IMG/VR virus record: IMGVR_UViG_3300032156_000001 | Span: 96,001-160,000 of that record | Source: a virus | DNA: 64,000 nucleotides | Direction: 5' to 3' (one strand) | Part shown: positions 18,785-50,568 of the stretch, one piece after another | How positions within the stretch are numbered: position 1 is the stretch's first letter | Layout: each line of letters starts with the position of its first letter | The notes under the pieces: generated by a model | Databases searched by the model: none | What the model saw: only the letters and a program-made list of their open reading frames with translations | What the model was told of the DNA's origin: nothing | Made by a program: the position numbers and the translations under genes

Positions 18785-18798
18785 CGGAAGGAGGTCCG

Positions 18799-19050: not shown

Positions 19051-19075
19051 CTTTTCGGCACCGCGCGCGAACAAT
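19047..19075 (+). promoter_or_regulatory. Sigma70-like promoter
   Basis: TTGACT-N17-AACAAT upstream of 19105. Confidence 0.55.
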
Positions 19076-19104
19076 GCGGGGGGACGACAAAGGAGGCCGA
19101 CGCC

Positions 19105-20357: not shown

Positions 20358-20372
20358 CCGCGAAGGAGCGAC

Positions 20373-20822: not shown

Positions 20823-20830
20823 GGGGCGCC

Positions 20831-21754: not shown

Positions 21755-21764
21755 GGAGGGGCGG

Positions 21765-24700
21765 ATGCCCGACAGCGACCTTCCGCTCGGCCTCCCGGCC
21801 GCCCAGCCGCTCCAGTTGCGCCGCTTCGACGACCACCACGCCGCGCGCGTCAATATCCTGAACGGCGTCGTGTCGGCGCTGCAGGAGAAGTATCCCGTCG
21901 AGAACGAGCGGTACAGGTTGGAGCTTTCCGGCCTGCACTACAAGCAGCCCAACAGCTACTCGCTGGAGGAGCAGAAGAAGGCGATCATCCACGGCGACTC
22001 GCTGCACGCCAAGCTGCACGGCACGTGGGCGCTGATTGACAAGGCCAGCGGCAAGCCGGTAGACACCAAGGAGACCGTCGTGGCGCACGTGCCGTGGCTG
22101 ACCGAGCGCGGCACGCTCATCCACAACGGGTCCGAGTATTTAATAAGTTCGCAATTCCGTTTGAAGCCCGGCGTCTACTCGCGCATGAAGGACAACGGCA
22201 TCCTGGAGGCCCACGTCAACGTGAAGCCCGGGACCGGGCCGTCCTTCCGCGTCTACATGGAGCCGGAGACCGGCGTGTTCCGCATGGCGGTCGGGCAGTC
22301 CACGCTGAAGCTCTACCCGATCCTGCGATCCATGGGCGTGTCCGACAAGGAGCTGCGCGACGCCTGGGGCGAGGAGCTGCTGCACAAGAACGTCGAGGCC
22401 GAGGACCCGCGCGCGGTAGGCCGCGCGTTCGCGAAGCTGGTCGAGAAGCCCGTCGAGGAAGGGCACCCGACGATCGTGTCTGCCGCGATGCCGGAGCTGC
22501 CGAAGGCGGCCAGCGAGACGCCCGAGACGGTCAAGAAGCTGCAGAAGATCGTCGATGCGCACAAACTTAAAGGCGGATATGGCGACGTTGCCTGGGACGA
22601 GGAGACCGGCGAGACCCACCTGTCCGTCGGCGACTGGCACGAGCAGGAAGACTATGCCGGGCTTGAGAAGGCCATCAAGGCCGTCCCGGGCGTGAAGAAG
22701 TTCCAGGTCGAGGCGGAAATAGGTCCGCCCGACGGCTGGTGGGCCGTCAACCACGGTCGTGAGCCGAAGATCTGGCACAAGCCGAAGCCGCGCGATCCCG
22801 AGCAGGAAGCCGCATTCATGGCCAGCCTCGACGGGCCGCCGCTCAAGATTGTCGGGCAGACGCTCAAGGAGGCCCAGGCGCCGATCGGCCAGAAGACCAC
22901 GGACCGCAAGTGGAAGTACCTGTGGTTCCACGGCGAGCTGTACACGAACCCGCCCGACAAGGAGCACCCGGATCCGTGGGTGCTGCTGAAGGTCCACAAG
23001 GGCCTGCCGCAGGCCGCCTATGCCACGCTGAAGGGCGAGGGCGTCGACTGCGAGCCGCACTACGACGACCCGCACGTCTCCGTCCTGCGCGGCGAGGAAG
23101 TCCGCGAGCTCATAAAGAAGTATGGCGACCAGTGGCAAGGCGCGGCCAAGATCGGTCAGAAGATGCGCTTCCGCCTGAGCAAGATCGTCAGCCTCGTGCC
23201 GGGCGGCTGGCCGGAGATGGACCGCGTGTGGTTCATCGAGGTAGAGTCGCCCGAGCTGGAGGAGTACCGGAAGGACCTCGGCTTCCGCAATCTGCCGCTC
23301 CAGCCGAAGACTGGCAACGAGGTCAGGTTCCATGTCACTTTCGCCGTGAAGCCGAACGTCGCGAGCAAGGCCGCCGCGGCGCTGACCGAGCCGCCCGAGG
23401 AAGGGGCGACGGCGCCGGCGGTCAAGCCGCCCGGCGAGGAAGGCCGGAAGATCCTGCACGCGCTCCAGCAGATGGAGCTCGACCCCGACGTCACGGAGTC
23501 GACGCTAGGCGAGCGGCACGTGAACGTGACGCCGAAGATGATGGTCCGGGCGACAAAGAAGCTGCTGGGCATCCAGAAGGGGACCGAGGAGACCGACGAC
23601 CGCGACTCGCTGGCCTACCAGACGCTGCACTCGCCGGAGGACTTCTTCGCGGAGCGGATCAGGCGCGATGCCGGCGGGCTGGGCAGGCGGATGCTGTGGC
23701 ACGCGACCAGGAAGGGCAACCTCGACTACGTCCAGAGCGGCGCGCTGACGCCGCAGATGCACGCCGTCCTGCTGAGCAGCGGGCTGGCCGCCGCGGCCGA
23801 GGAAACGAACCCGCTCGAGCTGGCCGATCAGCATCATCGCGTCGTGCGCACGGGCGAGGGAGGGATGTCGTGTTATTCGGAAGATACCGAAGTGCTAACG
23901 ATAGAAGGATGGAAACACTGGGGAACCGTCGTCGCTGCTGACGAACTTGCCTGTCGGGTGAACGGTCGGTTGGAGTTCCACCGACCGACGCGTCTTTTTA
24001 GCGGCGCATATCGCGGAAAGCTCTTATCTGCCGATACCCGGGTGATCAACTACGCGGTTACTCCGGATCATAGGGTGTTCGTGTCTTGGGATACGACGAC
24101 GGCCGGCCACGAATCGGTTCGGTCTCCGTTCCGGTTTCGGCCGGCTTTCGATATCCACGGCAAAAGAGTGCGGCATTTGGTTTCCGCTGAACCGTATCTG
24201 GGTGGCAGCCGGCCGGACAAACACGTTTTGCCGCCTGCGCCCGTTGACCGGGAAAACGCAGGATCCGCGAGAAGAGAGGCACTAGAGCTTGATTTTCTGG
24301 ACTGGGTGGAGTTCCTCGGTTGCTACCTGGCTGACGGCAGTTTCAGGTACGATGGCGACCGGCACGAATACCGAACGGAAGTTGGGAAAGTCCGATCATT
24401 GAATCCTGGCGAATACGCTACGATTGACGCCGTTTTGCGCCGATTGGGATTCACTTACAGATATGAGCAGAATCGTCGGTTTATCGTTCACGGGAAACAT
24501 CTGGCACACTACTTGTCGAAGTTTGGTAAAGCATGGACGAAGTACGTGCCGGAATACGTGATGCGCGGCGATATAGAAACGCGAAAGCGTTTCTTCTTTG
24601 CCATAACGACGATGGATCACACGGCGGCGTGCCCTGGACTGTCCTTCAAATATATGTCCGCTTCACCTAAGCTGGCCGAGCAGGTGGCTTGGCTGGCTGT

Positions 24701-27700
24701 TTCTCTCGGATACGCAGTTCACTACCTGACTCGCGTCAACCACAACAGGACCAATCCGATACATGTCATTCATATTTCTGAAGCCTCGGAAAGTCTCGTC
24801 TATCGGCAACACGCCGGCTTGCAGTATCGTGAACTTGATTATGCTGGAACGGTCTATTGCGCGTCTGTTCCTGGGGAGCTGGTATTTATACGTAGACACG
24901 GAAAAACGATGTGGTGTGGCAACTCCTTAGATGCAGTCCCCGAGGAGGCCAGGGTGGTGCAGCCGTCCCACTTCGGCTTCGTCGATCCGAGCCGCGCGCC
25001 CGAATCTGCAAGAATGGGTTTGGACAGCAGGATCGCCCACGGCGCGCTGCGCGGCAGCGACGGCCAGGTCCATGCGCCGATGCTGGACCTGAAGACCGGC
25101 AAGACCGAACTAGTGTCCGCGGCGCAGGCCGTCAAGAGCGTGGTCGCGTTCCCCGGCGAGATGGCCAGGACCGGCGCCACCGCCCGCGCCATGGTGCGCG
25201 GCAAGCGCATCGAGAACGTGCCGAAGGGCGAGGTGGACTTCGAGCTGCCCCACCACGCGCACATGTTCTCCGGGGTGACGAACCTCGTCCCCATGGCCGG
25301 CGCGCTGAAGGGCGGCCGGCTCATGATGGGCGCGAAGTTCTTCAGCCAGGCGCTGCCGCTCCAGCACAGCGAGGCGCCGCTGGTCCAGAACCTGTCGCCG
25401 GACGGCCGCAGCTTCGACGAGATCATGGGCGAGAAGGTCGGCGCGGTGCGGGCGGCCAAGCGCGGCGTCGTTATCGGCATCGACAAGAACAAGGTCCTCG
25501 TCCGCGAGGAGGGCGGCGGCAAGCGCGAGTACCCGCTGTACGACAACTTCGTCTTCAACAGGCGCACCGCGATCCACAACACGCCCGCCGTCGGCATCGG
25601 CGAGACGGTCGAGCCGGGCGCGCTGCTGGCCAGGAGCAACTATACGGACGCCAAGGGCGACACGGCGGTCGGGCTGAACTTGCGGACCGCGTACATGCCG
25701 TTCAAGGGCCTGAACTACGAGGACGCCGTCGTCATCAGCGAGAGCGCCGCCCAGCGGCTCAGCTCCGAGCACATGTTCCAGCGGACGCTCGAGAAGGACG
25801 ACCGCGACATGGAGTTCGGCAAGAAGCCGTTCATGTCGGTCTTCCCGGCCAAGTACGTCAAGGACCAGCTGGGCCGGATGGACGAGCACGGCGTGGTCAG
25901 ACCCGGGACCGTCGTGAAGAAGGGCGACCCGCTGATCCTCGGCATGGAGAAGACGCGGTTCACGCACACGCACCGCGGCCACAAGCCCATCTACACCGAC
26001 GCGTCGGAGACGTGGGACCACGAGGCGGACGGCACCGTCACGGACGTGTCGCCCACCAAGGGCGGCGGCTGGAACGTCACCGTGAAGACGTACCTGCCGG
26101 CGCAGACGGGCGACAAGCTGGCCGCGCGGTTCGGCGACAAGGGCGTCATCTCCGAGGTGATGCCGGACCACCAAATGCCGCACGACTCGCAGGGCAGGCC
26201 CATCGAGCTGTGCCTGAACCCGCTGGGGGTCATCAGCCGCGGCAACCCCGCGCAGGTCTACGAGGCGCTGCTGGGCAAGATCGCCCGGAAGACCGGGCGC
26301 GCGTACGTGGTGCCGTCCTTCCGAAACGGCAGCTGGATCGACTTCGTCCAGGGCGAGCTGCGCAAGAACGGCCTGAGCGACACGGAGGACCTGACCGACC
26401 CCTCGACGGGGACGAAGATCCCCGGCGTCCTGACCGGCGAGCGCTTCATGATGAAGCTGCACCATACCGCCGAGTCGAAGGGCAAGGGCAGGGACGTCGG
26501 CAGCTACACGTCGGAGGGGCTGCCCGCCATAGGGAGCAAGCGGATAGGCCAGATGGAGACCAGCGCGCTGGTCTCGCACAACGTCATGGACGTGCTCAAG
26601 GACGCCAAGCTGGTCCGCGGCCAGAGGAACGACGACTACTGGCGCGAGTTCCGCATGGGCAACGTGCCCGCGTCGCCGCAGACGCCGCTGGTCTACAGGA
26701 AGTTCCTGGCCAGCCTCACGGGCGCCGGCATCAACGTGAAGAAGGAGGGCAACAAGCTCAACCTGTTCGCCCTGACGGACAAGGACGTCGACAAGCTCAG
26801 CGCCGGCGAGGTCAAGGCCCCGCATACCGTCGCCGGCAACGATCTCGCGGAGATAGAGGGCGGCCTGTTCGACAAGGGGCTAACGGGCGGGCATGGCGGT
26901 TCGCGGTGGAGCCACGTGAATCTCGACGAGCCGACGCCCAACCCCGTCATGGAGGAGCCCACTCGCAGGCTGCTCGGCATGACGCAGAAGCAGTTCGAGG
27001 CGGCCATCTCGGCGCGCGGCGGCCAGGGGATCAAGGACGCGCTCTCGAAGATGGACGTGGACCGCGAGATCACTCGGTACGAGGACGAGGTCAAGACGGG
27101 CGCGCGGTCGCGGCGCGATAACGCCGTGAAGTGCCTCGGCTATCTTGAGGCCATGCGGACGCAGGGTTACAAGCCGGAAGAGCTGGTGATGTCGAAGGTC
27201 CCCGTCCTGCCGCCGGGCATGCGCCCCATCGTCCCGTTCCAGGGCAGGCCGCTGGTGTCGGACCCGAACTATCTGTACCGCGACCTGATGCACGCGAACC
27301 AGGATCTGAAGGACGCGAAGGGCGAGCTCGGCGCGGAGCGCGCCGGCGCAGAGCGGCTACGGCTGTACAACGCCTTCAAGGCGGTGACCGGCCTGGGCGA
27401 CCCCGTGCAGGCGAAGACCCGCGAGGCCAACGTGCGCGGCCTGCTGGCGCACGTGTTCGGGACCGGCGGACCCAAGACTTCGATGTTCCAGCGTCGTGTC
27501 CTCAGCACGCCGGTGGACGTGGTCGGGCGCGCGGTCATCACGCCGAACCCGCAGCTGTCGATGGACCAGGTCGGCCTGCCCGAGGAGAAGGCCTGGACGA
27601 TCTACAGACCGTTCATAACCCGCAGGCTGATCCGGCGCGGCATGCCCGCCACCGAGGCCGCGCGCGCCGTGGCGGACAGGCACCCCACGGCGAAGAACGC

Positions 27701-28139
27701 GCTGCTGGAGGAGATGCAGGCCCGGCCCGTCCTCATCAACCGCGCGCCGACGCTGCACAAGTACGGCTTCATGGCGGCGTGGCCGACGCTGGTGAAGGGC
27801 GACACGCTGCAGATCTCGCCGGTGGTGACGCCGGGCTTCGGCGCGGACTTCGACGGCGACGCGATGAACTACCACGTGCCGGTGTCCGACGCCGCCGTCC
27901 GCGAGGCCAAGGAGAAGATGCTGCCGTCGGCGAACTTGCGCGACGTCCGCGGGTTCAAGCTGCACTACCTGCCTCGACACGAGTTCCTGCTTGGGCTATA
28001 CTTGGCCAGCACGGCGGACAACCGCAACGAGCCGCGGTCGTTCCGCACGAGACAGGACGCGCTGCGCGCCTACCGCCGCGGCGAGCTCGGGCTTGGCGAC
28101 CGCGTGGCCACGCTGGACGAAGGGGAGAAGAAGAAATGA
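21765..28139 (+). CDS. Multi-subunit RNA polymerase: fused beta + beta' N-terminal half, with intein and inserted domains
   Basis: Beta motifs: GTLIHNGSEYLISSQ, GLNLRTAYMPFKGLNYEDA, GDKLAARFGDKGVIS, LNPLGVISRGN, MMKLHH, KRIGQME. Beta' motifs: GEVKAPHTV, VPVLPPGMRP, VDVVGRAVIT, LINRAPTLH, catalytic GADFDGD (27840-27860). Confidence 0.95.
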   Translation: MPDSDLPLGLPAAQPLQLRRFDDHHAARVNILNGVVSALQEKYPVENERYRLELSGLHYKQPNSYSLEEQKKAIIHGDSLHAKLHGTWALIDKASGKPVDTKETVVAHVPWLTERGTLIHNGSEYLISSQFRLKPGVYSRMKDNGILEAHVNVKPGTGPSFRVYMEPETGVFRMAVGQSTLKLYPILRSMGVSDKELRDAWGEELLHKNVEAEDPRAVGRAFAKLVEKPVEEGHPTIVSAAMPELPKAASETPETVKKLQKIVDAHKLKGGYGDVAWDEETGETHLSVGDWHEQEDYAGLEKAIKAVPGVKKFQVEAEIGPPDGWWAVNHGREPKIWHKPKPRDPEQEAAFMASLDGPPLKIVGQTLKEAQAPIGQKTTDRKWKYLWFHGELYTNPPDKEHPDPWVLLKVHKGLPQAAYATLKGEGVDCEPHYDDPHVSVLRGEEVRELIKKYGDQWQGAAKIGQKMRFRLSKIVSLVPGGWPEMDRVWFIEVESPELEEYRKDLGFRNLPLQPKTGNEVRFHVTFAVKPNVASKAAAALTEPPEEGATAPAVKPPGEEGRKILHALQQMELDPDVTESTLGERHVNVTPKMMVRATKKLLGIQKGTEETDDRDSLAYQTLHSPEDFFAERIRRDAGGLGRRMLWHATRKGNLDYVQSGALTPQMHAVLLSSGLAAAAEETNPLELADQHHRVVRTGEGGMSCYSEDTEVLTIEGWKHWGTVVAADELACRVNGRLEFHRPTRLFSGAYRGKLLSADTRVINYAVTPDHRVFVSWDTTTAGHESVRSPFRFRPAFDIHGKRVRHLVSAEPYLGGSRPDKHVLPPAPVDRENAGSARREALELDFLDWVEFLGCYLADGSFRYDGDRHEYRTEVGKVRSLNPGEYATIDAVLRRLGFTYRYEQNRRFIVHGKHLAHYLSKFGKAWTKYVPEYVMRGDIETRKRFFFAITTMDHTAACPGLSFKYMSASPKLAEQVAWLAVSLGYAVHYLTRVNHNRTNPIHVIHISEASESLVYRQHAGLQYRELDYAGTVYCASVPGELVFIRRHGKTMWCGNSLDAVPEEARVVQPSHFGFVDPSRAPESARMGLDSRIAHGALRGSDGQVHAPMLDLKTGKTELVSAAQAVKSVVAFPGEMARTGATARAMVRGKRIENVPKGEVDFELPHHAHMFSGVTNLVPMAGALKGGRLMMGAKFFSQALPLQHSEAPLVQNLSPDGRSFDEIMGEKVGAVRAAKRGVVIGIDKNKVLVREEGGGKREYPLYDNFVFNRRTAIHNTPAVGIGETVEPGALLARSNYTDAKGDTAVGLNLRTAYMPFKGLNYEDAVVISESAAQRLSSEHMFQRTLEKDDRDMEFGKKPFMSVFPAKYVKDQLGRMDEHGVVRPGTVVKKGDPLILGMEKTRFTHTHRGHKPIYTDASETWDHEADGTVTDVSPTKGGGWNVTVKTYLPAQTGDKLAARFGDKGVISEVMPDHQMPHDSQGRPIELCLNPLGVISRGNPAQVYEALLGKIARKTGRAYVVPSFRNGSWIDFVQGELRKNGLSDTEDLTDPSTGTKIPGVLTGERFMMKLHHTAESKGKGRDVGSYTSEGLPAIGSKRIGQMETSALVSHNVMDVLKDAKLVRGQRNDDYWREFRMGNVPASPQTPLVYRKFLASLTGAGINVKKEGNKLNLFALTDKDVDKLSAGEVKAPHTVAGNDLAEIEGGLFDKGLTGGHGGSRWSHVNLDEPTPNPVMEEPTRRLLGMTQKQFEAAISARGGQGIKDALSKMDVDREITRYEDEVKTGARSRRDNAVKCLGYLEAMRTQGYKPEELVMSKVPVLPPGMRPIVPFQGRPLVSDPNYLYRDLMHANQDLKDAKGELGAERAGAERLRLYNAFKAVTGLGDPVQAKTREANVRGLLAHVFGTGGPKTSMFQRRVLSTPVDVVGRAVITPNPQLSMDQVGLPEEKAWTIYRPFITRRLIRRGMPATEAARAVADRHPTAKNALLEEMQARPVLINRAPTLHKYGFMAAWPTLVKGDTLQISPVVTPGFGADFDGDAMNYHVPVSDAAVREAKEKMLPSANLRDVRGFKLHYLPRHEFLLGLYLASTADNRNEPRSFRTRQDALRAYRRGELGLGDRVATLDEGEKKK
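22900..23360 (+). other. 2H-phosphoesterase-like domain inserted in the RNAP beta moiety (approximate bounds)
   Basis: Two HxS/T motifs: PHVSV (~23070) and FHVTF (~23328), about 86 aa apart. Confidence 0.7.
23871..24923 (+). mobile_element. Intein (351 aa) with LAGLIDADG-type homing endonuclease
   Basis: Starts CYSEDTEVLT, ends RRHGKTMWCGN followed by Ser; FLGCYLADGSF block; visibly lower GC; removal restores the GEGGMS-SLDAVPEEAR..PSHFG beta motif. Confidence 0.92.
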
Positions 28140-29029
28140 GCCAGGATCTTGCTACCTTGAAGCTCGTCATGGAGACCGTGGCGGAGGTCCAGCGGCGCTG
28201 GGAGAAGCGGGGCTTCGTCCCGCTCGATTCCTCCGGCATGATGGTGCAGCCGCAGCAGCAGATGGATCCCTCGATGGGCGGGATGCCCGGCGGGCAGCCG
28301 CCGGGAGCTCCTCCGGGGCCCATGCCCCCCGGCGGCGCGCCCCCGCCCGGCGCGGGCGGAATGCCCCCGGGAGCGCCACCGGAAGCCGGTGGAATGCCGC
28401 CGGAAGCCGGCGGCGCTGCTCCCGGTGGGGCTCCTCCCGGCCAGCCCGTCATGGTCAGCCTGAACGACCTGATCCAGCTGTTCCAGATGATCGTCCAGCA
28501 GCTCGGCGGCGCGGCTGCCCCTGGCGGGGCGGCCGCCCCGGCGCAGGCCCCCGCGGAAGCGCCCAAGAAGGGCAAGGTCGCCGTGGAAGAACAGCTGGCG
28601 CAACTGAACGCGAAGCTCGATCAGCTGCTCGGCGCGCTGGGCGGCGGCTCCGCTCCGGCTCCCGCTCCCACCGGGGGCCCTCCTGCTGCCGCCCCCGCCG
28701 AGCCGACGCAGGCCGGCCCCGTCGCGCCCGCGGCGCCGATGCAGGTCCAGGCCAGCGCGATCGGCAAGCCGGAAGAGGACCCCGGCGAGCCGCCTTCGCT
28801 GTCCGACCCGATCAAGACGGCCGAGATCCCGACGAGCGGCCCGGCGAACCCCGCGCTTGGCGCGGCGACCCCGGCCGCCGCAGTTCCTCCGCCGGCGCTT
28901 CCCCCGCCGGCCTCGATGCAGCCGCCCACCGCTGTCGCCATGCAGCAGCCGGCAGGTGGGCTGGCGGGTGCCAAGGCGCAGTCGATGGCCAAGAGGATAA
29001 CCGAACTGAGAGGAGCGCCCAAGAAGTGA
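28136..29029 (+). CDS. Pro/Gly/Ala-rich hypothetical protein
   Basis: ATGA overlap with the RNAP stop; frame of track ORF 27779..29029. Confidence 0.75.
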   Translation: MSQDLATLKLVMETVAEVQRRWEKRGFVPLDSSGMMVQPQQQMDPSMGGMPGGQPPGAPPGPMPPGGAPPPGAGGMPPGAPPEAGGMPPEAGGAAPGGAPPGQPVMVSLNDLIQLFQMIVQQLGGAAAPGGAAAPAQAPAEAPKKGKVAVEEQLAQLNAKLDQLLGALGGGSAPAPAPTGGPPAAAPAEPTQAGPVAPAAPMQVQASAIGKPEEDPGEPPSLSDPIKTAEIPTSGPANPALGAATPAAAVPPPALPPPASMQPPTAVAMQQPAGGLAGAKAQSMAKRITELRGAPKK

Positions 29030-29253
29030 AGGTGCGCGTGCAGTCAGGCGACATGAGCTCCGTGGAGTTGGAGGACGCCCGCAGCGCGGTGGTCATAGAC
29101 GACCACGGGCAGCCGATCGTGCTGGTGCAGTCGATGGCGCCTGGCCAAGTCCTGGTAGCGCGGGCGTCGGACCCGAACTTCAGGAAGCAGATCGAGGCGC
29201 TCGGCATAGGGTTGCGAGCCGATTTCGAGGTGCGAAAGGGCCATGCGAGCTGA
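29026..29253 (+). CDS. Hypothetical protein (75 aa)
   Basis: GTGA coupling; AGGAG upstream; globular-looking sequence VKVRVQSGD. Confidence 0.6.
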   Translation: MKVRVQSGDMSSVELEDARSAVVIDDHGQPIVLVQSMAPGQVLVARASDPNFRKQIEALGIGLRADFEVRKGHAS

Positions 29254-32200
29254 CTGGTTCACGGACGCCGTTTACGCCTCCGCGTTGCCGCCGGCTGTCA
29301 AGGAAGTGGCAGGGTGGGGCGGCGCCGGTCGGGCTTTCGGGGGGCGCACGTTCGCCGCCCCGGTCTTCGGGCGGCTCTTCGGACGGACGGCGGCGCCTGC
29401 GGCAGAACAGGCCGCTGCAGGCGCCGCTGCGCGCATCGTGCCGGTAGCAAAGGGGACCGCTGCGGCTGCCGGAACGGCCGCGCGGCCGGGCGCTTTGGCT
29501 GCACTCGGGCAACAGTTCCGGCCGGGCAACGTGGCGTCCCAGTTTTCCCGGCAGCTCGGCTTGGGCGGGTTGGGGACCGCCGCAAGAGGGGAACTGACGT
29601 CGCAATTGCGTTCCGGCGGGCGCATAGGGGAAGAACTGGTAAGGCAGTTCGGCCTTGGCAGCCCCGCGATGGCCGCGCTGGCGCCTGGCATAGCGACACG
29701 GCGCATGGCGGCGCAGCTGGCCCTTCGACCGCCGGTTCCCGCCTTGCAAGGCATCAAGTGGCAGGCGGGTGAAGCGGGTCCGCCCGGCTTGCGTTCCTTG
29801 GTGCCGTCGAGAATGCCGCACGAGCCGGGAGGGACAGTGGAACGCGCCGTCCCGGGGGAACAGTTGGGCGGCGTTCGCATCGGCGGGCGCACGCAGGCGT
29901 ACGCGGAGTCTCCCTCCGGGACCGCCACCGTGCTTCCCATCCTGTATCGGCCGCGGCCTGCGCCCGTACCGGCGCCGGCGGCGTCGATGACTACGCACGT
30001 CACGCCCGCGCAGGCGGCATCAGGCACGCCGGCAGCTGCGAAGACGCCCACGCCAGCGCAGGCCGCTTCGGGGACCATGACAACGTCGAGAAGCCGCGGC
30101 ATGAGCATGGCACCGGCGCAAGGCGAGCAGCCGGCCGCGCCCGGCCAGCCGCCGGCAGGGACCCCGTTGACGCAGGAAGCGTTCATGAAAGGCATCGAGT
30201 CGATACGGCCGGAGACGGGCTTCATGGCCGGCGTCAAGGGCATGCTTCCGTGGATGGCGCTAAGCTACGGACCGCAGATGCTCTCGGGTCTTTATCGCGG
30301 ATTCGTCAAGCCGGACGAGGAGGAAGGCCGCGCGCAGGAAGCGCAGGGCCCGCGCTATAGCCACGGCGTTTCGCCGTACGCTAGCCCAGTCGCCGAGTCG
30401 GAACGGTATCGGTACTGGCCGAAAGGCGCTGCGGACGTTTCCAAGGCCTTGGAAAAGTCGGCTAAGCGGACGTGGCGCTCGAAGTCCTTCCGCAAGTTCA
30501 CGCTGCTGCACAGGTTCCCCGGCAAGACGAGGATGTCGGCCATGCGCAGGAAGACCGTCGCGCGCAGCATGCCGTTCGCTGCCAAGTCGGCCTTCTACTG
30601 CGGCTTGGCGAAGCGTTGCGCCGAGCTCGGCCTTGACAGGGACGACGGCAGGGCCGTCGTGGAAGCCCTGCAGAAGCTGGCCTTCGACGGGGAAAATCCA
30701 CGGCCGGAAGAGGAGGAAATAGACCCGCTGTACACTTATGCCCCGGCGGTTGGCGCCGCCGGCGCGGGTCTTCTTGCTGGCGCCGGGACTGGCGGAGGTC
30801 TGCTGGCTTCCGGCGTGGGCGGCACAATGGTTGGCGGCATGGCGCTCTCTCCATTTGAAAGGTTCGCCGAGGGGGTGCGGAGGAGCCACGCGACTGAAGG
30901 TTGGGGAAAGAATTGGCCGCTGCTGTATTCGACCGGTCAGGGCTTCAAGAACATGGTGACCGGCGAATACGGATCCGATCCCTACGGGTCCGCCCCCGCT
31001 TCGGCGGGGAAGGCGGGAAAGGGCGGCGTCGGCACCGACCCGATGGCACTCGACAAGGCAATAGGCACGCTTAAAGATCCGGAAGTGTATAAGCGGATGA
31101 TTCGGGAGGAGAAAGAAAAGTTCGGGCCGATGAACGCGGAAAGATTGAAAGGTTTTCTCAATCTTGCGTATGAGCAAGCGCGAGTAGGCGGCGAGGTGTC
31201 CCCCGGCGAGGCCGCCGCGTCGGCCACCACGGGGATGATCCCCGGCATACGGGGGCTTGACCGCGCCCAAAAGAGCAAGATCCTTCGCAGGCTTCATCCC
31301 GAGTTGGACGCCGTGAAAACATTGCCGGCATTCCAGACGCCGGGGATCGGCGCGGCGCCCGGGGTAGGAACAGCGCCCGGAGTTAGCAGGCCGTCTGGCG
31401 CTGTCGGGCCGCAGGGCACAGCCGCTGCGCCCATGCCGGGTTCGCCGGCAGCTGCCCGAAGGCCCATGAGCGGCCAGAAGTCCACGCGCGACCAGGTCAG
31501 CCTGATAAGGCAGGAAGCAGCCACGCGGCAGGCGCCGGCCGCTCCGAAGGCCCCGGCGCCGACCGGCTCGCCCAGCGCCGCTGCGGCTCCGGCATCGACT
31601 GGTGCGGCACCGCGACCGTGGTCCGCCCGCGGCGGATTCGAGGGCGCTGAGGGGACCCGTTACGGCATGGCGCAGTCCGGCGGCGAATACGTGCCGCTCA
31701 GCGGCGGCGCCAACACGGAACCTGGCCAGACATACGGCGGCGCGGGGAGCTTCGACATAGACCGAAGGCGCGGCAGCATCGGACTGCCCGTGGCCGCGCG
31801 ACAAGCAATGCAATCGTTCCGTCAACCGCCCAGCGGCGCTTACGCTGCCCCGGAAGGAGCGGTCTACGGCCGCGGGTCCGCAATGGGCGGTCCCGAGCGG
31901 TTCTCGTTCGACCCGTCGGAACGGCTTGTGGGGACTGCGCTGTCAGCGCTGACGGGAGCGGGCGGCGGACAACCCGCCCCGGCGGCCCAGGGCGTGCCGG
32001 CGGTTGCCGCGCCGCCGGTGCCGTCGCGCATGGCGCGGAGGATCGAGGACGTCGGGGGCGGCGATGAACCGTCCGGTGCCTCGGCCAGGCTCCGGGCTGG
32101 CAGCGTCGCTACCTCGGTGCCGCAGGGGGCAGTGGCCCCGTCATTCGGCGACGTGGCGTCGTCCGTCGGCAAGCCGGGATTCAGTAAGCACATCACGGGT

Positions 32201-32341
32201 CAGGTGCAGCCGACGCCGTCCAGGCCGCTGCCGGGCGCGCCACAGCTGCCGCCGCCCAATCCGGGCGGCCTGGAAGCGATAAGAAGGAGCCGGGAGCTGT
32301 TGAGCGCCCCGATACCGCCCACGGGCTACGCGACTCGGTGA
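29243..32341 (+). CDS. Large low-complexity Ala/Gly/Pro-rich protein (possible head-internal/ejection protein)
   Basis: 1032-aa ORF filling the space between coupled genes; Gly-zipper segments; KxA motifs. Confidence 0.65.
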   Translation: MRADWFTDAVYASALPPAVKEVAGWGGAGRAFGGRTFAAPVFGRLFGRTAAPAAEQAAAGAAARIVPVAKGTAAAAGTAARPGALAALGQQFRPGNVASQFSRQLGLGGLGTAARGELTSQLRSGGRIGEELVRQFGLGSPAMAALAPGIATRRMAAQLALRPPVPALQGIKWQAGEAGPPGLRSLVPSRMPHEPGGTVERAVPGEQLGGVRIGGRTQAYAESPSGTATVLPILYRPRPAPVPAPAASMTTHVTPAQAASGTPAAAKTPTPAQAASGTMTTSRSRGMSMAPAQGEQPAAPGQPPAGTPLTQEAFMKGIESIRPETGFMAGVKGMLPWMALSYGPQMLSGLYRGFVKPDEEEGRAQEAQGPRYSHGVSPYASPVAESERYRYWPKGAADVSKALEKSAKRTWRSKSFRKFTLLHRFPGKTRMSAMRRKTVARSMPFAAKSAFYCGLAKRCAELGLDRDDGRAVVEALQKLAFDGENPRPEEEEIDPLYTYAPAVGAAGAGLLAGAGTGGGLLASGVGGTMVGGMALSPFERFAEGVRRSHATEGWGKNWPLLYSTGQGFKNMVTGEYGSDPYGSAPASAGKAGKGGVGTDPMALDKAIGTLKDPEVYKRMIREEKEKFGPMNAERLKGFLNLAYEQARVGGEVSPGEAAASATTGMIPGIRGLDRAQKSKILRRLHPELDAVKTLPAFQTPGIGAAPGVGTAPGVSRPSGAVGPQGTAAAPMPGSPAAARRPMSGQKSTRDQVSLIRQEAATRQAPAAPKAPAPTGSPSAAAAPASTGAAPRPWSARGGFEGAEGTRYGMAQSGGEYVPLSGGANTEPGQTYGGAGSFDIDRRRGSIGLPVAARQAMQSFRQPPSGAYAAPEGAVYGRGSAMGGPERFSFDPSERLVGTALSALTGAGGGQPAPAAQGVPAVAAPPVPSRMARRIEDVGGGDEPSGASARLRAGSVATSVPQGAVAPSFGDVASSVGKPGFSKHITGQVQPTPSRPLPGAPQLPPPNPGGLEAIRRSRELLSAPIPPTGYATR
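30438..30455. repeat. Palindrome TTTCCAAGGCCTTGGAAA (copy 3, intragenic)
   Basis: Read directly; encodes part of VSKALEK. Confidence 0.9.
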
Positions 32342-32345
32342 CTGA

Positions 32346-34190
32346 ATGCTCACGACGGTCGGACAGCTTCTGGTCAACGAGGAGCTCCCCCCGGGGCTGC
32401 GCGACCATTCGCGCGTCCTCGACCAGGCCGGCGTGGCCAAGCTGTTCGGCGAGATAGAGAAGGCCGACAAGGGCAAGTTCGCCGACATCAACAGGCGGCT
32501 GCACGACATCGGCCAGCTGGTGTCCACCAGGCAGGGCCGCGAGACGAGCCTGTCGCTGGACGCCCTGCGCCCTTCCAAGGGCGTCGCCGACGAGCGCGCC
32601 AAGCTGGACCGCGAGGTGAAACTGATCCTGGCCGGCCCGGGCGACACGGCGGAGAAGCACAGGAAGATCGTCGAGGCCATCGCCGGCAAGGCCGACAGGA
32701 TCACCGAGCTGAACTACCAGGAAGGCCTGAAGGACCGCAACCCGTTCGCGCTGCAAATCCTGTCGGGCAGCCGCGGCAACAAGGTACAGTTCAGGACGCT
32801 GCGCGCGGGCGACCTGTTGGTAACCGATCACAGGGATGAGCCCGTGCCGGTGCCAATGCTGTCGTCCTACGCTGAGGGGCTCGACCCGGTGCAGTATTGG
32901 GCGGGAGCGTATGGCGCCCGCCGAAGCGAGATTTTGAAAAAGTTCTCCACCCCGAAGGCCGGCTACCTCGGCAAGCAGCTCGCCATGGCGGCGCACAGGC
33001 TCGTCGTGACGGAGAAGGACTGCGGCACTTCCACCGGCGTGCCGGCGACGGCCGACGATCCCGACAACGAGGGTGCCGTCCTGGCAACCGACGCGGCCGG
33101 CATCCGGGCCGGGACGGTGCTGACGCCGGACATCATGCGGAAGCTGGGGGACAAGAAGATCCTCGTCAGGTCGGCGCTGACCTGCCAGGCGGAGCGCGGC
33201 CTGTGCGGCAAGTGCGCTGGCGTACGCGAGACAGGCGCGCTGCCGTCGATCGGCTCGCATATCGGCATCGCGGCGGCGCACGCGCTTTCAGAGCCGTTGT
33301 CACAGGGGTCTCTGGGCGCGAAACATTTGGGCGGGACCGTCTCCTCCGGCCAGAGATCGAAGGACGACGCGCTCGACGTGGTCAACAGGCTGGTCCAAGT
33401 GCCGGAGGCGTTCCCCGGCGCGGCGGCGGTCGCTACCAACGACGGCCGCGTGGAGCGCGTCGAGGATGCGCCGCAGGGCGGCACGACGGTCGTCATAGGC
33501 GGCAAGGAGCACTGGGCGGCGCCGGGCCAGAAGATCATGGTGAAGAAGAACGACGAAGTCGAAGCTGGCGACGTCATCAGCGACGGCATGCCTAATCCCG
33601 CCGACATCGTGAAGCACAAGGGCATCGGCGAGGGCAGGCGCTACTTCACGGACCTGTTCAGGAAGACGCTGGCGCAGCACGGATTCAAGCAGAACAGGCG
33701 GAACGTGGAGCTGGTGGCCCGCGGCCTGATCAACCACGTGCGCATCACGGGGCTGCACGGGCCGAACCACACCGTCATGGACGACCTGGTGGAGTTCGAC
33801 CCGCTCATGCGCGGCTACGAGCCCAGGGAGGGCAGCGTTTCCGTCACGCCGAAGGAAGCCAGGGGTTTCTTTCTGGAAAGGCCCGTGCTACATTACTCGG
33901 TGGGCACGCGGATCACGCCGCGGATGGCGGCGGAGCTGCACGGGAACGGCGTCAAGAGCGTCACGGCGCACCGTGAGCCGCCGCCGTTCGAGCCGGAGAT
34001 GGTGCGGGCGGTCGAAACGATGGCGCACGCGGACGACTGGATGCTGCGGCTGGGAGGCCTGTACGGCATCCAGCGCAGCTTCTTGAAGTCCGTCCACCGC
34101 GGCGGCACCTCCGATCCGACGGGGACGTCCTACATCCCGGCGCTGGCGGAGGGCACCGGCCTGCGGGGGTTGGAAGACGAGGAGGATTAG
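32346..34190 (+). CDS. RNA polymerase beta' C-terminal half
   Basis: TTVGQLL start, SGSRGN, bridge helix YGARR...AGYL, VVTEKDCGT, Zn site VRSALTC...LCGKCAG, trigger loop GIAAAHALSEPLSQ...KHLGG. Confidence 0.93.
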   Translation: MLTTVGQLLVNEELPPGLRDHSRVLDQAGVAKLFGEIEKADKGKFADINRRLHDIGQLVSTRQGRETSLSLDALRPSKGVADERAKLDREVKLILAGPGDTAEKHRKIVEAIAGKADRITELNYQEGLKDRNPFALQILSGSRGNKVQFRTLRAGDLLVTDHRDEPVPVPMLSSYAEGLDPVQYWAGAYGARRSEILKKFSTPKAGYLGKQLAMAAHRLVVTEKDCGTSTGVPATADDPDNEGAVLATDAAGIRAGTVLTPDIMRKLGDKKILVRSALTCQAERGLCGKCAGVRETGALPSIGSHIGIAAAHALSEPLSQGSLGAKHLGGTVSSGQRSKDDALDVVNRLVQVPEAFPGAAAVATNDGRVERVEDAPQGGTTVVIGGKEHWAAPGQKIMVKKNDEVEAGDVISDGMPNPADIVKHKGIGEGRRYFTDLFRKTLAQHGFKQNRRNVELVARGLINHVRITGLHGPNHTVMDDLVEFDPLMRGYEPREGSVSVTPKEARGFFLERPVLHYSVGTRITPRMAAELHGNGVKSVTAHREPPPFEPEMVRAVETMAHADDWMLRLGGLYGIQRSFLKSVHRGGTSDPTGTSYIPALAEGTGLRGLEDEED

Positions 34191-34192
34191 TA

Positions 34193-34828: not shown

Positions 34829-34865
34829 GGCTGTCGGCCGTTTCACGTTTGCGAGGAGCTGAGCC

Positions 34866-37379: not shown

Positions 37380-37387
37380 GGGCGACA

Positions 37388-45732: not shown

Positions 45733-45801
45733 GAAACTGGCGCCGGTCCAGCCACCAAGGGCGGCCCGGCTTGGGAAGGCTTGGAAGAGAGGGTCACTGA
45801 G

Positions 45802-46731
45802 ATGGAACCGACCACGGAACTGCTGAATCGGGCCGTCATAGACCGGCTCACCTCGGACGATCCCGGGATGGTGAAGGAAGCCGTCACGGCGATCAACGAG
45901 TACACGCGGGTGAAGCTGCGCGAAGACGGCTTCCTGAGGCGGGTGCTCCCGCCCCTGACGATCACGGAGTTCGACCGGCAGGTCGACACCGACAAGCCGG
46001 TCAAGGTCGTGGACAAGGAACCGGACTCCCCGGCCGCGATCAGCGTGCCGTTCGGCTCCTCGCCCATGAACCGGTACATCCGCGGGCCCCGCTACCGCGT
46101 GATGTTCGACCGGATCCTCACGCCGAAGTTCACCAAGGACGTCGTCGAGCTGATGACCTGGCACATGGACATCCGCCAGATCCTCAGCGACAACGCCATC
46201 AAGGACATGATGGCCGAGGAGGACAACAAGTTCCTCCTGGCGGTCAACACCGTCCTGGTGGCCCCCGGCAGCGTCCTGCCCGACACGGGCATCGCGCAGT
46301 GGGTCACGCTCAGCGGCGGAGTGACCAGGGACACGCTGGCTGCGGCCATGCAGGTCCTCCCGGGCAGCTTCCAGCGCTTGGTCGCGGCCACGGTGCTGGT
46401 CAACCAGATCACCATCTGGGAGTTCGTGAAGTGGGGCCGCGACGAGGTCGGCGGCGACGACGCGCAGGCCACGCTGCGCCAGGGCTTCCAGGAACGCGAG
46501 CTCATGGGGGTCCGCTTCATCGTCACGATCAAGTGGGACCTGGTCCCGACGAACACGATCTTCCTGTTCGCCGAGCCGAAGTTCCTCGGCAAGCTGTACA
46601 TGATCGAGGACGTCACGATGTACGTGAACAAGCGGGCGTTCATGCTCGAGTTCTTCGCGTACGAGTGCCTCGGCGGGGCGATCGGGAACGTGGCCGCGGT
46701 CGGCCGCGTGGACTTCACGACCGAGACGTAG
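45802..46731 (+). CDS. Putative major capsid protein
   Basis: 309 aa, very strong codon bias; position after protease, scaffold and decoration genes; followed by a strong hairpin. Confidence 0.7.
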   Translation: MEPTTELLNRAVIDRLTSDDPGMVKEAVTAINEYTRVKLREDGFLRRVLPPLTITEFDRQVDTDKPVKVVDKEPDSPAAISVPFGSSPMNRYIRGPRYRVMFDRILTPKFTKDVVELMTWHMDIRQILSDNAIKDMMAEEDNKFLLAVNTVLVAPGSVLPDTGIAQWVTLSGGVTRDTLAAAMQVLPGSFQRLVAATVLVNQITIWEFVKWGRDEVGGDDAQATLRQGFQERELMGVRFIVTIKWDLVPTNTIFLFAEPKFLGKLYMIEDVTMYVNKRAFMLEFFAYECLGGAIGNVAAVGRVDFTTET

Positions 46732-50548: not shown

Positions 50549-50568
50549 GGGACGCGGAGGAAGCGCCG

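What the first reader, a model, noticed from the sequence alone, without database searches (positions are those of the whole stretch)
21765..34190. Unusual RNAP architecture: beta fused to beta' N-half, with beta' C-half encoded 4 kb downstream
Seen: the beta C-terminal motifs (..LTGAGINVKKEG, ~26740) run without a stop into beta' N-terminal motifs (LFALTDKDVDKLSAGEVKAPHTV). Both double-psi barrels and the catalytic GADFDGD (Gly instead of the usual Asn) are therefore in one chain. The bridge helix and trigger loop are in 32346..34190, which starts just before the TTVG motif. Established: cyanobacterial RpoC1 retains that motif, so this split point differs. No alpha, omega or sigma gene is recognisable in the window. 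The genes lie among virion genes, suggesting a packaged polymerase of the kind found in deep-branching multi-subunit-RNAP phages.
Basis: partly seen in the sequence, partly recalled or inferred. Interest (0 to 1): 0.75.

Follow-up and report, generated by a model that had tools for sequence, protein, structure and literature searches.

The report
Fused-and-split phage RNA polymerase
This uncultured 188-kb phage encodes its only RNA polymerase as two chains, all of beta joined to the front half of beta-prime and the back half of beta-prime alone; hundreds of related phages share the layout, no paper I could search describes it, and here the first chain also carries a self-splicing intein.

Summary
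ORF 21765-28139 (2124 aa) holds a complete RNAP beta that runs, with about 5 linker residues, into beta-prime (E. coli residues ~15-548). ORF 32346-34190 (614 aa) starts at the TTVG motif and holds the bridge helix and trigger loop.

It is not an assembly error. The same fusion and the same split point occur in 29 independent loci, including Salmonella phage Arash and Vibrio phage D181. Hundreds of ~615-aa beta-prime-C proteins exist in metagenomes.

On a beta-prime tree the lineage forms one clade, outside 30 bacteria from about 11 phyla.

- A 351-aa LAGLIDADG intein (23871-24923) interrupts beta, so the mature chain is 1773 aa.
- The genome has three sigma-like genes outside the window. One is the homologue of Arash's virion-detected gp10.
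- The published "deep-branching" mReC phages have separate beta and beta-prime genes, so they are a different architecture.

Virion packaging is inferred only. It rests on Arash virion mass spectrometry and on the position of the genes in the head operon.

This scan found the same layout before on at least eight other genomes. I found no paper describing it. My verdict is a new variant of a known kind.

The parts
21765..28139 (+). Precursor ORF of 2124 aa: RNAP beta fused to the N-terminal half of beta-prime. After intein removal it is 1773 aa.
21765..22469 (+). Beta N-terminal region (aa 1-235), equivalent to E. coli beta 22-231.
   Evidence: BLASTP
22470..23444 (+). Insertion of about 325 aa at the beta lobe (the position of E. 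coli SI1). It holds a 2H phosphoesterase domain (Pfam PF22547, aa 434-531, nt 23064-23357; motifs PHVSV and FHVTF). It is shared only with the nearest relatives L006, L007 and L009.
23871..24923 (+). 351-aa intein with a LAGLIDADG homing-endonuclease domain (C703...N1053, +1 Ser1054). It sits in the conserved beta motif GEGGMS|SLDAVPEE, at about E. coli beta 539/540. GC3 is 0.57 against 0.88 for the host gene.
26715..26831 (+). Fusion junction. The beta C-terminus (..LTGAGINVKKEG, equivalent to E. coli beta 1340) is followed by about 5 residues and then the beta-prime N-terminus (LFALTDKDVDKLSAGEVK..).
26751..28136 (+). Beta-prime N-half (equivalent to E. coli beta-prime ~15-548). It has the clamp helices and the catalytic double-psi barrel. 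The N-terminal Zn-binding Cys motif is replaced by a Cys-less segment, TGGHGGSRWSHVNLDEPTPNPV.
27840..27860 (+). Catalytic motif GADFDGD.
28136..29029 (+). Intervening gene A, 297 aa, Pro/Ala/Gly-rich, with its start overlapping the stop of the fused gene (ATGA). It has weak low-complexity counterparts at the same position in L006, L007, L009 and L010. No family hit.
29026..29253 (+). Intervening gene B, 75 aa, conserved (38-51% identity) at the same position in L005, L007, L009 and L010 only. No family hit.
29243..32341 (+). Intervening gene C, 1032 aa, Ala/Gly/Pro-rich and of low complexity. GC3 of 0.77 favours this frame. No family or homologue was found.
32346..34190 (+). Beta-prime C-half, 614 aa. 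It starts MLTTVGQ (equivalent to E. coli beta-prime 572) and holds the bridge helix, the trigger loop without an SI3 insert, and the four Cys of the second Zn site (DCGT; CQAERGLCGKC).
34866..37379 (+). Conserved downstream gene (837 aa). It is the homologue of Arash gp218, a protein detected in Arash virions by MS, and is present across the lineage.
   Evidence: PMC10585845
41168..42646 (+). Homologue of Arash gp222 (detected in virions by MS).
45781..46731 (+). Major capsid protein homologue (31% identity to Arash gp226, E 3e-42; phrog_2522, E 1e-5).

Best explanation
These two genes encode the catalytic core of a phage-specific, bacterial-type multisubunit RNA polymerase. It belongs to the lineage typified by Salmonella phage Arash gp206 + gp216.

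**Shown**
- Chain 1 is a head-to-tail fusion of complete beta to beta-prime residues ~15-548. It holds both double-psi barrels, the Mg-binding DFDGD and the clamp helices.
- Chain 2 is the rest of beta-prime, with the bridge helix, the trigger loop and the second Zn site.
- The gene was cut in the poorly conserved surface linker just before TTVG.
- It is the only RNAP set in the genome. No alpha or omega is encoded.
- Chain 1 is interrupted by a 351-aa homing-endonuclease intein of foreign base composition. It sits at a conserved beta motif and is absent from all sampled relatives at that site.
- The genes are tightly packed, with overlapping or 4-37-nt-spaced starts, in one long same-strand head/virion operon.

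**Inferred**
- The intein splices out to give a 1773-aa chain.
- The covalent beta-beta-prime link substitutes for the alpha-dimer assembly platform.
- Promoter recognition uses phage sigma-like factors. One is the 233-aa homologue of Arash gp10, 0.9 kb past the window end.
- The enzyme is made late and packaged into the capsid, as the Arash virion proteome suggests. It would then be injected to start phage transcription independently of the host polymerase.
For: **Domain map**
-.

**Conservation**
- The junction, the loss of the first Zn motif and the split point are conserved in 29 loci: 27 metagenomic viral contigs plus the isolates Arash and D181.
- The 615-aa beta-prime C form is widespread: 1131 protein clusters at E<=1e-20, and the top 120 are nearly all 603-622 aa.

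**Phylogeny**
- On the beta-prime N tree (65 rows), the lineage is one clade (SH-aLRT 99) and 30 bacteria of about 11 phyla are one clade (98).
- The best bacterial identities are a flat 32-37% across many phyla.

**Gene content of the genome**
- Single RNAP set. No alpha or omega.
- Sigma-like ORFs. Homology to Arash gp10 is 27% over 233 aa, E 2e-17.

**Sigma binding (weak)**
- Complex prediction of that sigma-like protein with the beta-prime N-half gave weak support: score 0.44, best of 3 controls 0.00.
- Calibration: the mark was reached by 58 of 80 solved complexes and 2 of 110 mismatched pairs. At 0.60 or under it was reached by only 7 of those 80, and by both mismatches that passed.
- The runs agree in at least 53% of contacts, and partner pLDDT is at least 72.
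- Sigma/beta-prime complexes are solved, so the pass may reflect likeness only.

**Intein**
- Exact 351-aa insertion between S702 and S1054. Intein-less relatives read GEGGI(P/S)S(L/I)D.
- Cys1, TPDH, LAGLIDADG-like LGCYLADGS, and a terminal GN followed by Ser. The same intein family sits at 5 or more other beta sites in relatives.
- AlphaFold model (pLDDT 77) matches the TliVMA, PhoVMA, PI-SceI and PI-PfuI inteins, Foldseek E 3e-15 to 1e-8.
- GC3 is 0.57 against 0.88 for the host gene.

**Virion context**
- The window is colinear with the Arash structural module.
- In Arash, gp206 is the most abundant protein by spectra. gp216, sigma gp10 and helicase gp217 were also detected in purified particles (PMC10585845).
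Against: - Nothing here shows packaging directly. The Arash particle proteome also contained ribonucleotide reductases, a dNMP kinase and RNA ligases, so carry-over of abundant infected-cell proteins is possible. The authors say so themselves.
- No transcription data, no promoter assignment and no proof of splicing exist.
- The intein's penultimate residue is Gly, not His. Its second LAGLIDADG motif is degenerate (TMDH for GDG), so homing activity may be lost.
- The use of host alpha and omega cannot be excluded.
- The tree has no archaeal outgroup and used the quick search. It shows 'not nested in a sampled bacterial phylum', not a root.
- The complex-prediction pass is weak.
Confidence: 0.72

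Rival explanations
1. The architecture is the same, but the enzyme is not packaged. It is a non-virion polymerase made with the late genes and used only for middle/late or late transcription. Early genes would be read by the host polymerase, possibly redirected by the phage sigma-like factors.
For: - No direct packaging evidence exists for this phage.
- The Arash particle proteome also lists clearly non-structural enzymes.
- The genome encodes sigma factors that could equally serve the host core.
- Three sigma70-style bipartite sites (GCTAAAA-N17-TATTAT) exist elsewhere in the genome and could be host-type early promoters.
Against: - The genes sit inside the head operon, next to homologues of MS-detected virion proteins. 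This synteny is kept from Arash to this phage despite about 30% identity.
- In Arash, gp206 had the highest spectral count of all proteins, above the major capsid protein.
- There is only one RNAP set, and it lies in a late-type operon. An enzyme needed before late genes are expressed would have to be carried in.
Confidence: 0.2
2. The long ORF is an artefact or a decaying gene. That would mean a mis-assembly or frameshift joining separate rpoB and rpoC genes, or a pseudogene disabled by the 351-aa insertion.
For: - The record is a metagenome-assembled contig.
- The insertion has no Pfam, NCBIfam or PDB sequence hit.
Against: - The same in-frame junction occurs in 29 independent loci and in two isolate genomes.
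- Arash gp206 had 100% peptide coverage by MS.
- GC3 of the ORF is 0.88 throughout, outside the intein.
- The insertion has intein termini and an intein fold, and it is excised exactly in the alignment with relatives.
Confidence: 0.02
3. The genes are a recent capture of host rpoBC, from a bacterium with fused rpoBC as in Helicobacter or Wolbachia, which was then split.
For: - The best NCBIfam hit by score is the beta/beta-prime fusion model PRK09603.
- The enzyme is clearly bacterial-type, with sigma-type partners.
Against: - That hit reaches 338 bits against a cut-off of 5372.
- Identity to any bacterial beta-prime is only 32-37%, and it is spread evenly over many phyla.
- The lineage and the bacteria are separated by well-supported branches.
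- No prophage-like or closer copy appeared among one genome for each of 185,579 species.
Confidence: 0.04

Closest known systems
Salmonella phage Arash gp206 (1525 aa) + gp216 (606 aa), with sigma-like gp10 (OQ632216; PMC10585845); also Vibrio phages D181, D148 and D69
   Same: - The same beta + beta-prime N fusion and the same split before TTVG/ITPG.
- The same loss of the N-terminal Zn motif.
- The same place in the head operon, upstream of gp218-, gp222- and MCP-like genes.
- A sigma-like partner is conserved.
   Different: - Identity is only about 30-34%.
- Arash lacks the intein and the 2H insertion (1525 aa against 2124 aa).
- The genes between the two RNAP genes differ and are on the opposite strand in Arash.
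- Arash has AADYDGD.
- The paper annotates gp206 simply as beta and gp216 as beta-prime, and does not describe the fusion or the split.
mReC, multimeric-RNAP-encoding Caudovirales (Weinheimer & Aylward 2020, PMC7481178)
   Same: - Uncultured tailed phages with bacterial-type beta and beta-prime, branching apart from cellular clades.
- They come from some of the same metagenomes.
   Different: - Their tables list separate, adjacent beta (about 1000-1400 aa) and beta-prime (about 900-1400 aa) genes, sometimes two sets per contig.
- None of the metagenome IDs of 6 relatives' contigs is in their supplements. For the metagenomes of L007, L009 and L013, which they did scan, their contigs differ in length and protein sizes.
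- The paper mentions neither a split nor virions.
phiKZ / AR9-type jumbo-phage virion and non-virion RNAPs
   Same: - Phage multisubunit RNAPs without alpha or omega.
- One set is packaged and injected.
- Beta-prime is split into N and C polypeptides.
   Different: - Those enzymes have 4-5 small subunits, with beta also split and no beta/beta-prime fusion.
- They have two paralogous sets per genome.
- They have no sigma-family factor (PMC7824862).
- PHROG scores here are far lower for their families than for full-length-type families. RP13 shows that type.
Natural rpoB-rpoC fusions of Helicobacter and Wolbachia (NCBIfam PRK09603, PRK14844); engineered E. coli fusion (from my own knowledge)
   Same: Beta C-terminus joined directly to beta-prime N-terminus. 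This shows the join is structurally tolerated.
   Different: - Those are full-length fusions of ordinary bacterial subunits within bacterial clades, working with alpha2 and omega.
- Here the scores are far below the cut-offs, beta-prime is cut again, and the lineage lies outside the bacteria sampled.
- Two distant relatives (L026, L028) do have the whole beta/beta-prime in one ORF.
Cyanobacterial and plastid split beta-prime (gamma/RpoC1 + RpoC2)
   Same: Beta-prime is cut in the same poorly conserved stretch between the catalytic barrel and the bridge-helix module.
   Different: - The cyanobacterial cut lies about 23 residues further on, after the TTVG segment (8syi_Z alignment).
- There is no fusion to beta.
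- RpoC2 carries the large SI3 insert, which is absent here.
Homing-endonuclease inteins (PI-SceI, TliVMA, PhoVMA, PI-PfuI)
   Same: HINT + LAGLIDADG fold, Cys1, terminal Asn, +1 Ser, and insertion in a highly conserved motif of an essential enzyme.
   Different: - No Pfam, NCBIfam or PDB sequence hit.
- The penultimate residue is Gly instead of His in all six family members.
- The family seems specific to this phage RNAP, where it occupies at least six different beta sites.

Membership tests
Multisubunit (two-barrel) DNA-dependent RNA polymerase core, bacterial type | Beta-type double-psi barrel domain (Rpb2_6) and beta-prime-type barrel (Rpb1_2) with DFDGD | tested here: met
   Pfam PF00562 E 1e-47, PF00623 E 6e-24; GADFDGD at aa 2026 with the three Asp invariant in 26 relatives
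Multisubunit (two-barrel) DNA-dependent RNA polymerase core, bacterial type | Bridge helix and trigger loop module (Rpb1_5) | tested here: met
   PF04998 in P0002; rpoC_TIGR profile 549-1060; alignment to E. coli beta-prime 677-939 and 1194-1268
Multisubunit (two-barrel) DNA-dependent RNA polymerase core, bacterial type | Alpha dimer and omega subunits | tested here: not met
   No match to PF01193, PF01000 or PF01192 in the 188-kb record, while all 14 control genomes matched. The record is about 90% complete, and use of host subunits cannot be excluded.
Multisubunit (two-barrel) DNA-dependent RNA polymerase core, bacterial type | RNA synthesis activity | not testable with these tools
   Needs biochemistry
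Arash-like two-chain phage RNAP lineage | Beta C-terminus fused in frame to beta-prime N-terminus | tested here: met
   Alignment of 26 members, conserved junction
Arash-like two-chain phage RNAP lineage | Beta-prime cut just before the TTVG motif, with the C-half as a separate ORF of about 615 aa downstream | tested here: met
Arash-like two-chain phage RNAP lineage | Monophyly with Arash/D181 apart from bacteria | tested here: met
   SH-aLRT 99 for 29 rows; quick search, no archaeal outgroup
Arash-like two-chain phage RNAP lineage | Location in the head/virion operon and a gp10-like sigma factor in the genome | tested here: met
Arash-like two-chain phage RNAP lineage | Presence of both chains in virions | not testable with these tools
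   Only the Arash proteome is available (PMC10585845)
mReC phages (PMC7481178) | Separate full-length beta and beta-prime genes, adjacent | tested here: not met
   Supplement 5 protein lengths compared with this layout; contig IDs are absent
phiKZ/AR9-type phage RNAPs | Beta and beta-prime each split into small subunits; two sets; no sigma | tested here: not met
   One set, a fused chain and sigma-like ORFs present; family description from PMC7824862
Cyanobacterial-type beta-prime split | Cut at the RpoC1/RpoC2 boundary | tested here: not met
   The rpoC2_cyan profile starts about 23 aa after TTIG in the unsplit relative L026. The rpoC1_cyan match stops at position 551-553 of 619.
Intein with LAGLIDADG homing endonuclease | Nucleophile at position 1, terminal Asn, and Ser/Thr/Cys at +1 | tested here: met
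   C703, N1053, S1054; the same in five homologous inteins
Intein with LAGLIDADG homing endonuclease | HINT fold with an inserted LAGLIDADG domain | tested here: met
   Model pLDDT 77; Foldseek prob 1.00 to 7qsu, 7qst, 1vde and 1dq3; I-DmoI for the endonuclease part
Intein with LAGLIDADG homing endonuclease | Precise absence from homologous host genes | tested here: met
   0 residues in these columns in 24 of 25 relatives and 1 residue in L028
Intein with LAGLIDADG homing endonuclease | Protein splicing and homing activity | not testable with these tools
   The penultimate Gly and the degenerate second LAGLIDADG motif leave homing activity in doubt

The most novel reading that the evidence does not exclude
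The two chains plus a phage sigma-like factor form a self-sufficient holoenzyme without alpha or omega. In it, the covalent beta/beta-prime link replaces the alpha-dimer assembly platform. The holoenzyme is packaged in the capsid and injected, and it starts transcription from phage-specific bipartite promoters, so the phage does not depend on the host polymerase.

The surface insertion site in the beta lobe serves as a dock for enzymatic cargo delivered with it. Here the cargo is an intact 2H phosphoesterase; in relatives there is also an HAD-type module. Such cargo could act on RNA ends or on cyclic-nucleotide defence signals.
Probability: 0.25. Interest if true: 0.8.

Novelty: new variant of a known kind. 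Interest (0 to 1): 0.6.

Why it matters
Bacterial RNA polymerase assembly is thought to need the alpha dimer. A natural, widespread enzyme that dispenses with alpha and omega would be a minimal two-chain model for assembly and for sigma-dependent initiation. It joins beta to beta-prime, cuts beta-prime elsewhere, has lost the first zinc site, and yet keeps sigma-type partners.

If it is packaged, it would be a third kind of injected phage polymerase, beside the N4 and crAss/P23-45 single chains and the phiKZ multi-piece enzymes. It has a cultured, tractable representative (Arash on Salmonella Typhimurium) in which this can be tested.

The lineage is large, with hundreds of clusters, and is missed or mis-annotated by subunit-by-subunit pipelines. 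The many inteins and cargo insertions make it a natural experiment on which RNAP surfaces tolerate interruption.

Tried and rejected
- **Read mapping.** No read-level check of the junction or of intein-less variants was possible. Cross-assembly conservation was used instead.
- **Sequence searches for the intein.** Pfam and NCBIfam and a PDB sequence search gave nothing. Only the fold search identified it.
- **Neighbouring genes.** Pfam and PHROGs on 28136-29029, 29026-29253, 29243-32341, 34193-34828, 34866-37379, 20756-21754 and 19105-19986 gave no family.
  - BLAST found only low-complexity or near-relative matches for genes A and B, and none for gene C.
  - I therefore make no claim that they are RNAP subunits and did not spend the complex job on them.
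- **Promoter and terminator scan.** The generic sigma70 promoter and terminator scan of 18500-38400 found 3 promoter-like sites against 1.1 expected, and 10 terminator-like sites against 12.4. That is no signal.
- **mReC membership.** The idea that this is an mReC member was considered and rejected.
- **RP13 and Va2.** Ralstonia phage RP13 and Vibrio phage Va2, weaker tblastn hits, turned out to be other RNAP architectures.
- **Order of events.** The unsplit L026 and L028 group with Arash and D181 at only SH-aLRT 84. Whether the split is ancestral with a later re-fusion, or arose twice, is left open.
- **Literature searches.** Searches for a description of the layout found none in the held library.

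Full report
**Source and setting.** The window is bases 96001-160000 of a 188,118-bp IMG/VR virus record that CheckV rates about 90% complete. It has about 67% G+C. Genes run almost entirely on the + strand.

**Checking the observation.**
- ORF 21765-28139 translates without a stop into 2124 aa (P0001). ORF 32346-34190 gives 614 aa (P0002).
- Pfam finds Rpb2_6 (aa 1263-1582), Rpb1_1 and Rpb1_2 (aa 1794-2051) in P0001, and Rpb1_5 in P0002.
- NCBIfam rpoB covers aa 1061-1613. rpoC_TIGR profile 155-532 covers aa 1741-2115 of the same chain. P0002 continues at profile 549-1060.
- I fetched E. coli K-12 rpoB and rpoC for comparison. Against them, beta is matched to residue 1340 of 1342, beta-prime N from 175 to 548, and P0002 begins at TTVG, which is E. 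coli 572.
- The quoted motifs sit at nt 26715, 26763 and 27840.
- The description is therefore right in every sequence detail.

**Not an artefact.** I searched IMG/VR with the junction region (aa 1500-2124).
- This returned 29 loci at 36-63% identity in which one tblastn segment spans beta's end and beta-prime's start.
- An ORF-by-ORF comparison shows a fused ORF of typically 1460-1500 aa, and a separate beta-prime C ORF of 612-680 aa lying 1-6 kb downstream.
- Two isolates have the same layout. Salmonella phage Arash has gp206 (1525 aa) and gp216 (606 aa), 4.7 kb apart and just after the portal gene. Vibrio phage D181 has it too, with beta additionally interrupted by a homing-endonuclease gene.
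- The alignment shows a conserved join..AGINV.K.G.. then .L.AMTDKDV.. then GGLFD..TGGHGG.RWSHI.L.EP.PNPVMEEP. The Cys-rich zinc motif of bacterial beta-prime (E. coli C70-C88) is replaced by a Cys-less stretch in every member.
- The fused ORFs all end at ..A(Y).RGE(I)...D.V.I, and the second ORFs all start at M..TT(V/I)GQ.
- Two distant members, L026 and L028, carry everything in one ORF of 2051 and 2126 aa. There the sequence reads straight through the split point.
- The large protein database holds 1131 clusters related to P0002 at E<=1e-20. The best 120 are nearly all 603-622 aa.
- The longer relatives are mostly beta-prime C with long C-terminal extensions or inteins, not unsplit beta-prime.

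- Between S702 and S1054 lies a 351-aa segment that begins with Cys and ends Gly-Asn, followed by Ser.
- Intein-less relatives read GEGGI(P/S)-S(L/I)D across the site. Of 25 relatives, 24 have nothing in these columns and L028 has one residue.
- Homologous elements (26-34% identity) sit at other conserved beta sites in L016, L024, L031 and L033. All share C....TE..T..GW, VTP.H, a LAGLIDADG-type motif, and VYC..VP.G....R..G....GN followed by S or T.
- Family libraries and a PDB sequence search found nothing, apart from a PHROG hit to the N-terminal 84 aa.
- An AlphaFold model built on the six-sequence alignment (pLDDT 77) matches homing-endonuclease inteins (TliVMA, PhoVMA, PI-SceI, PI-PfuI) at Foldseek E 3e-15 to 4e-8. 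Its middle domain matches I-DmoI.
- Its third-position G+C is 0.57 against 0.88 for the rest of the gene, so it is a recent arrival.
- The insertion lies at E. coli beta 539/540, in the GPGGL motif.
- The mature chain should be 1773 aa.
- The second LAGLIDADG motif is degenerate here, so the endonuclease may no longer be active. This is an inference.

**Other features of chain 1.**
- A ~325-aa insertion (aa 236-560) sits where E. coli has its lobe insert SI1. The rest of the lineage has almost nothing there.
- It holds an intact 2H phosphoesterase (PF22547, E 4e-7; PHVSV and FHVTF) shared with L006, L007 and L009. L006 and L007 also have an HAD-like DLDGT module at the same place.
- That is the subject of another note on this window (e1-5801543), and I did not pursue it further.
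- Gly in GADFDGD is one of three residues (N, G, A) seen at that position in the lineage.
- P0002 keeps the four Cys of the second zinc site and has no SI3 insert in the trigger loop. This is read directly and the alignments.

**Split point compared with known splits.**
- I scanned the unsplit relative L026 with NCBIfam. The cyanobacterial gamma profile stops aligning at position 553 of 619. The RpoC2 profile position 5 aligns about 23 residues after TTIG.
- In the PDB search, P0002 residue 22 pairs with residue 12 of cyanobacterial RpoC2 (8syi_Z).
- The cuts are therefore close, in the same variable linker, but not the same.
- The match to the archaeal A' profile stops at position 567-572 of 867-883, well short of its end. 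From my own knowledge, the archaeal A'/A'' cut lies much further on, after the bridge helix.

**Phylogeny.**
- A pattern scan of one genome from each of 185,579 species found only ordinary bacterial rpoC genes. They show 32-37% identity and come from many phyla, with no favoured group and no closer (prophage) copy.
- I built a maximum-likelihood tree from 386 columns of beta-prime N and 65 rows, with LG+C20 and the quick search. The 29 lineage members form one side of a branch (SH-aLRT 99), and the 30 bacteria (about 11 phyla, E. coli included) form another (98).
- Six other viral contigs with weak matches fall on very long separate branches.
Without archaeal sequences the root is unknown.

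**Which known phage group?**
- The mReC phages of Weinheimer & Aylward have separate, adjacent beta and beta-prime genes of about 1000-1400 and 900-1400 aa, sometimes in two sets.
- The metagenome IDs of six relatives' contigs are absent from their tables. For metagenomes they did scan (those of L007, L009 and L013), their contigs differ in length and protein sizes.
- The paper does not mention a split or virions.
- phiKZ/AR9-type enzymes are built from four or five small subunits in two sets and have no sigma (PMC7824862). PHROG scores to their families are much lower than to full-length-type families.
- The proper comparator is Arash. Its paper lists gp206 as beta and gp216 as beta-prime without noting the fusion.
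- That paper reports gp206 as the protein with most spectra in purified particles. It also detected gp216, sigma gp10 and helicase gp217. The authors caution that abundant infection proteins might be carried over.

**Partners and context.**
- The genome has a single RNAP set and no alpha or omega.
- It has three sigma-like ORFs, all outside the window. One has regions 2 and 4, one has region 4 only, and the third is a 233-aa protein.
- The 233-aa protein lies 0.9 kb beyond the window's end and is homologous to Arash gp10 (27% identity, E 2e-17).
- A complex prediction of this protein with the beta-prime N-half gave weak support: score 0.44, best control 0.00.
  - At this level the pass is more often wrong than right unless the guess was likely beforehand.
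  - Runs agree in at least 53% of contacts, and partner pLDDT is at least 72.
  - Solved sigma/beta-prime complexes may explain the pass.
- The window is colinear with the Arash head module: fused gene, beta-prime C, gp218-like, gp222-like, then major capsid protein.
- From at least 19105 to 37379 the genes abut or overlap (ATGA at 28136; 4-nt and 2-nt gaps around P0002). No promoter or terminator signal rises above shuffled controls.
- The three genes between the RNAP genes are Pro/Ala/Gly-rich or small, and they match no family. Only genes A and B have counterparts, and only in the nearest relatives. I do not regard them as RNAP subunits.

**How it probably works.**
- Shown: a two-chain core with all catalytic elements, conserved over a large phage lineage, encoded once, inside the late/virion operon, and with a sigma-like partner conserved as far as Arash.
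- Inferred:
  1. The intein splices out.
  2. The covalent beta/beta-prime link makes up for the missing alpha platform. Natural and engineered rpoBC fusions show the join is tolerated (my own knowledge).
  3. Sigma-like factors direct the enzyme.
  4. It is packaged and injected.
- I put the whole reading at about 0.7. The packaging step taken alone is nearer 0.55-0.6.

**Earlier notes of this scan.** At least eight follow-ups on other genomes reached the same reading, with the same closest relatives. I had reached it independently before looking. Here I re-tested the layout, the conservation, the absence of alpha and omega, the Arash comparison and the lack of a describing paper. One earlier report described a member with no cysteine or zinc site. 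This window keeps the second zinc site.

**Verdict.** The feature is real and well conserved. It is a member of a lineage known from a few deposited isolates, but its architecture is not described in any paper I could search. This copy is distinguished by an intein at a site not occupied in 25 sampled relatives, and by a 2H-phosphoesterase insertion.

Noticed in passing
window 22470-23444 (2H domain at 23064-23357); L006, L007 and L009 at the same alignment columns: The beta-lobe insertion site collects enzyme domains. An intact 2H phosphoesterase (PHVSV, FHVTF) is present here and in three relatives. L006 and L007 add an HAD-like DLDGT...DDR module, and L007 a further ~100-aa module. More distant members have nothing there.
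   Followed up: partly
G000:C1 ~471-505, ~35455-35490 and ~74462-74497 (outside the window, + strand): Three near-identical bipartite promoter-like sites, GCTAAAA-N17-TATTAT(A/G)C. These are the only such copies in the 188-kb record and stand out as AT-rich islands in a 67% GC genome. They are candidate promoters for the phage holoenzyme or for host sigma70.
   Followed up: partly
G000:C1:160916-161617 (L044:970-1671), 50564-51280 (L040:1402-2118), 87808-88545 (L042:1108-1845): Three sigma-70-family-like ORFs lie in the phage genome outside the window. The first is homologous to Arash gp10, which was found in Arash particles. The second is ECF-like, with regions 2 and 4. The third has an HTH plus region 4 only.
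   Followed up: partly
L016, L024, L031, L033 (two copies); also ~400-aa inserts in L005 and L007: One intein family (all ending Gly-Asn followed by Ser/Thr) occupies at least six different conserved sites of this phage beta. Beta-prime C homologues with intein Pfams (about 990-1900 aa) are also common. This RNAP is an intein hot spot.
   Followed up: partly
L026:7532-13684 and L028:7355-13732: Two distant lineage members encode beta, beta-prime N and beta-prime C in a single ORF (2051 and 2126 aa). On the tree they group with Arash and D181 at only SH-aLRT 84, so the order of fusion and split events is open.
   Followed up: partly
Proteins P0126-P0245; L014, L025, L027, L029: In many relatives the beta-prime C chain carries a 500-1400-aa C-terminal extension without Pfam hits. 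A few have SNF2/helicase C/NUDIX or AAA domains. This window's copy is plain (614 aa).
   Followed up: no
L004 (Vibrio phage D181) 7422-12990: In D181, beta is cut into 533-aa and 1014-aa ORFs by an inserted free-standing homing-endonuclease gene. It is annotated only as hypothetical proteins.
   Followed up: no
G000:C1:8869-9036 (outside the window): AT-rich intergenic island with long (CT)n/(GA)n inverted repeats (CTCTCTCTCTTTAGAGAGAGAG ... CTCTCTCTCTTACAGAGAGAGAGAGAG). Its purpose is unknown.
   Followed up: no
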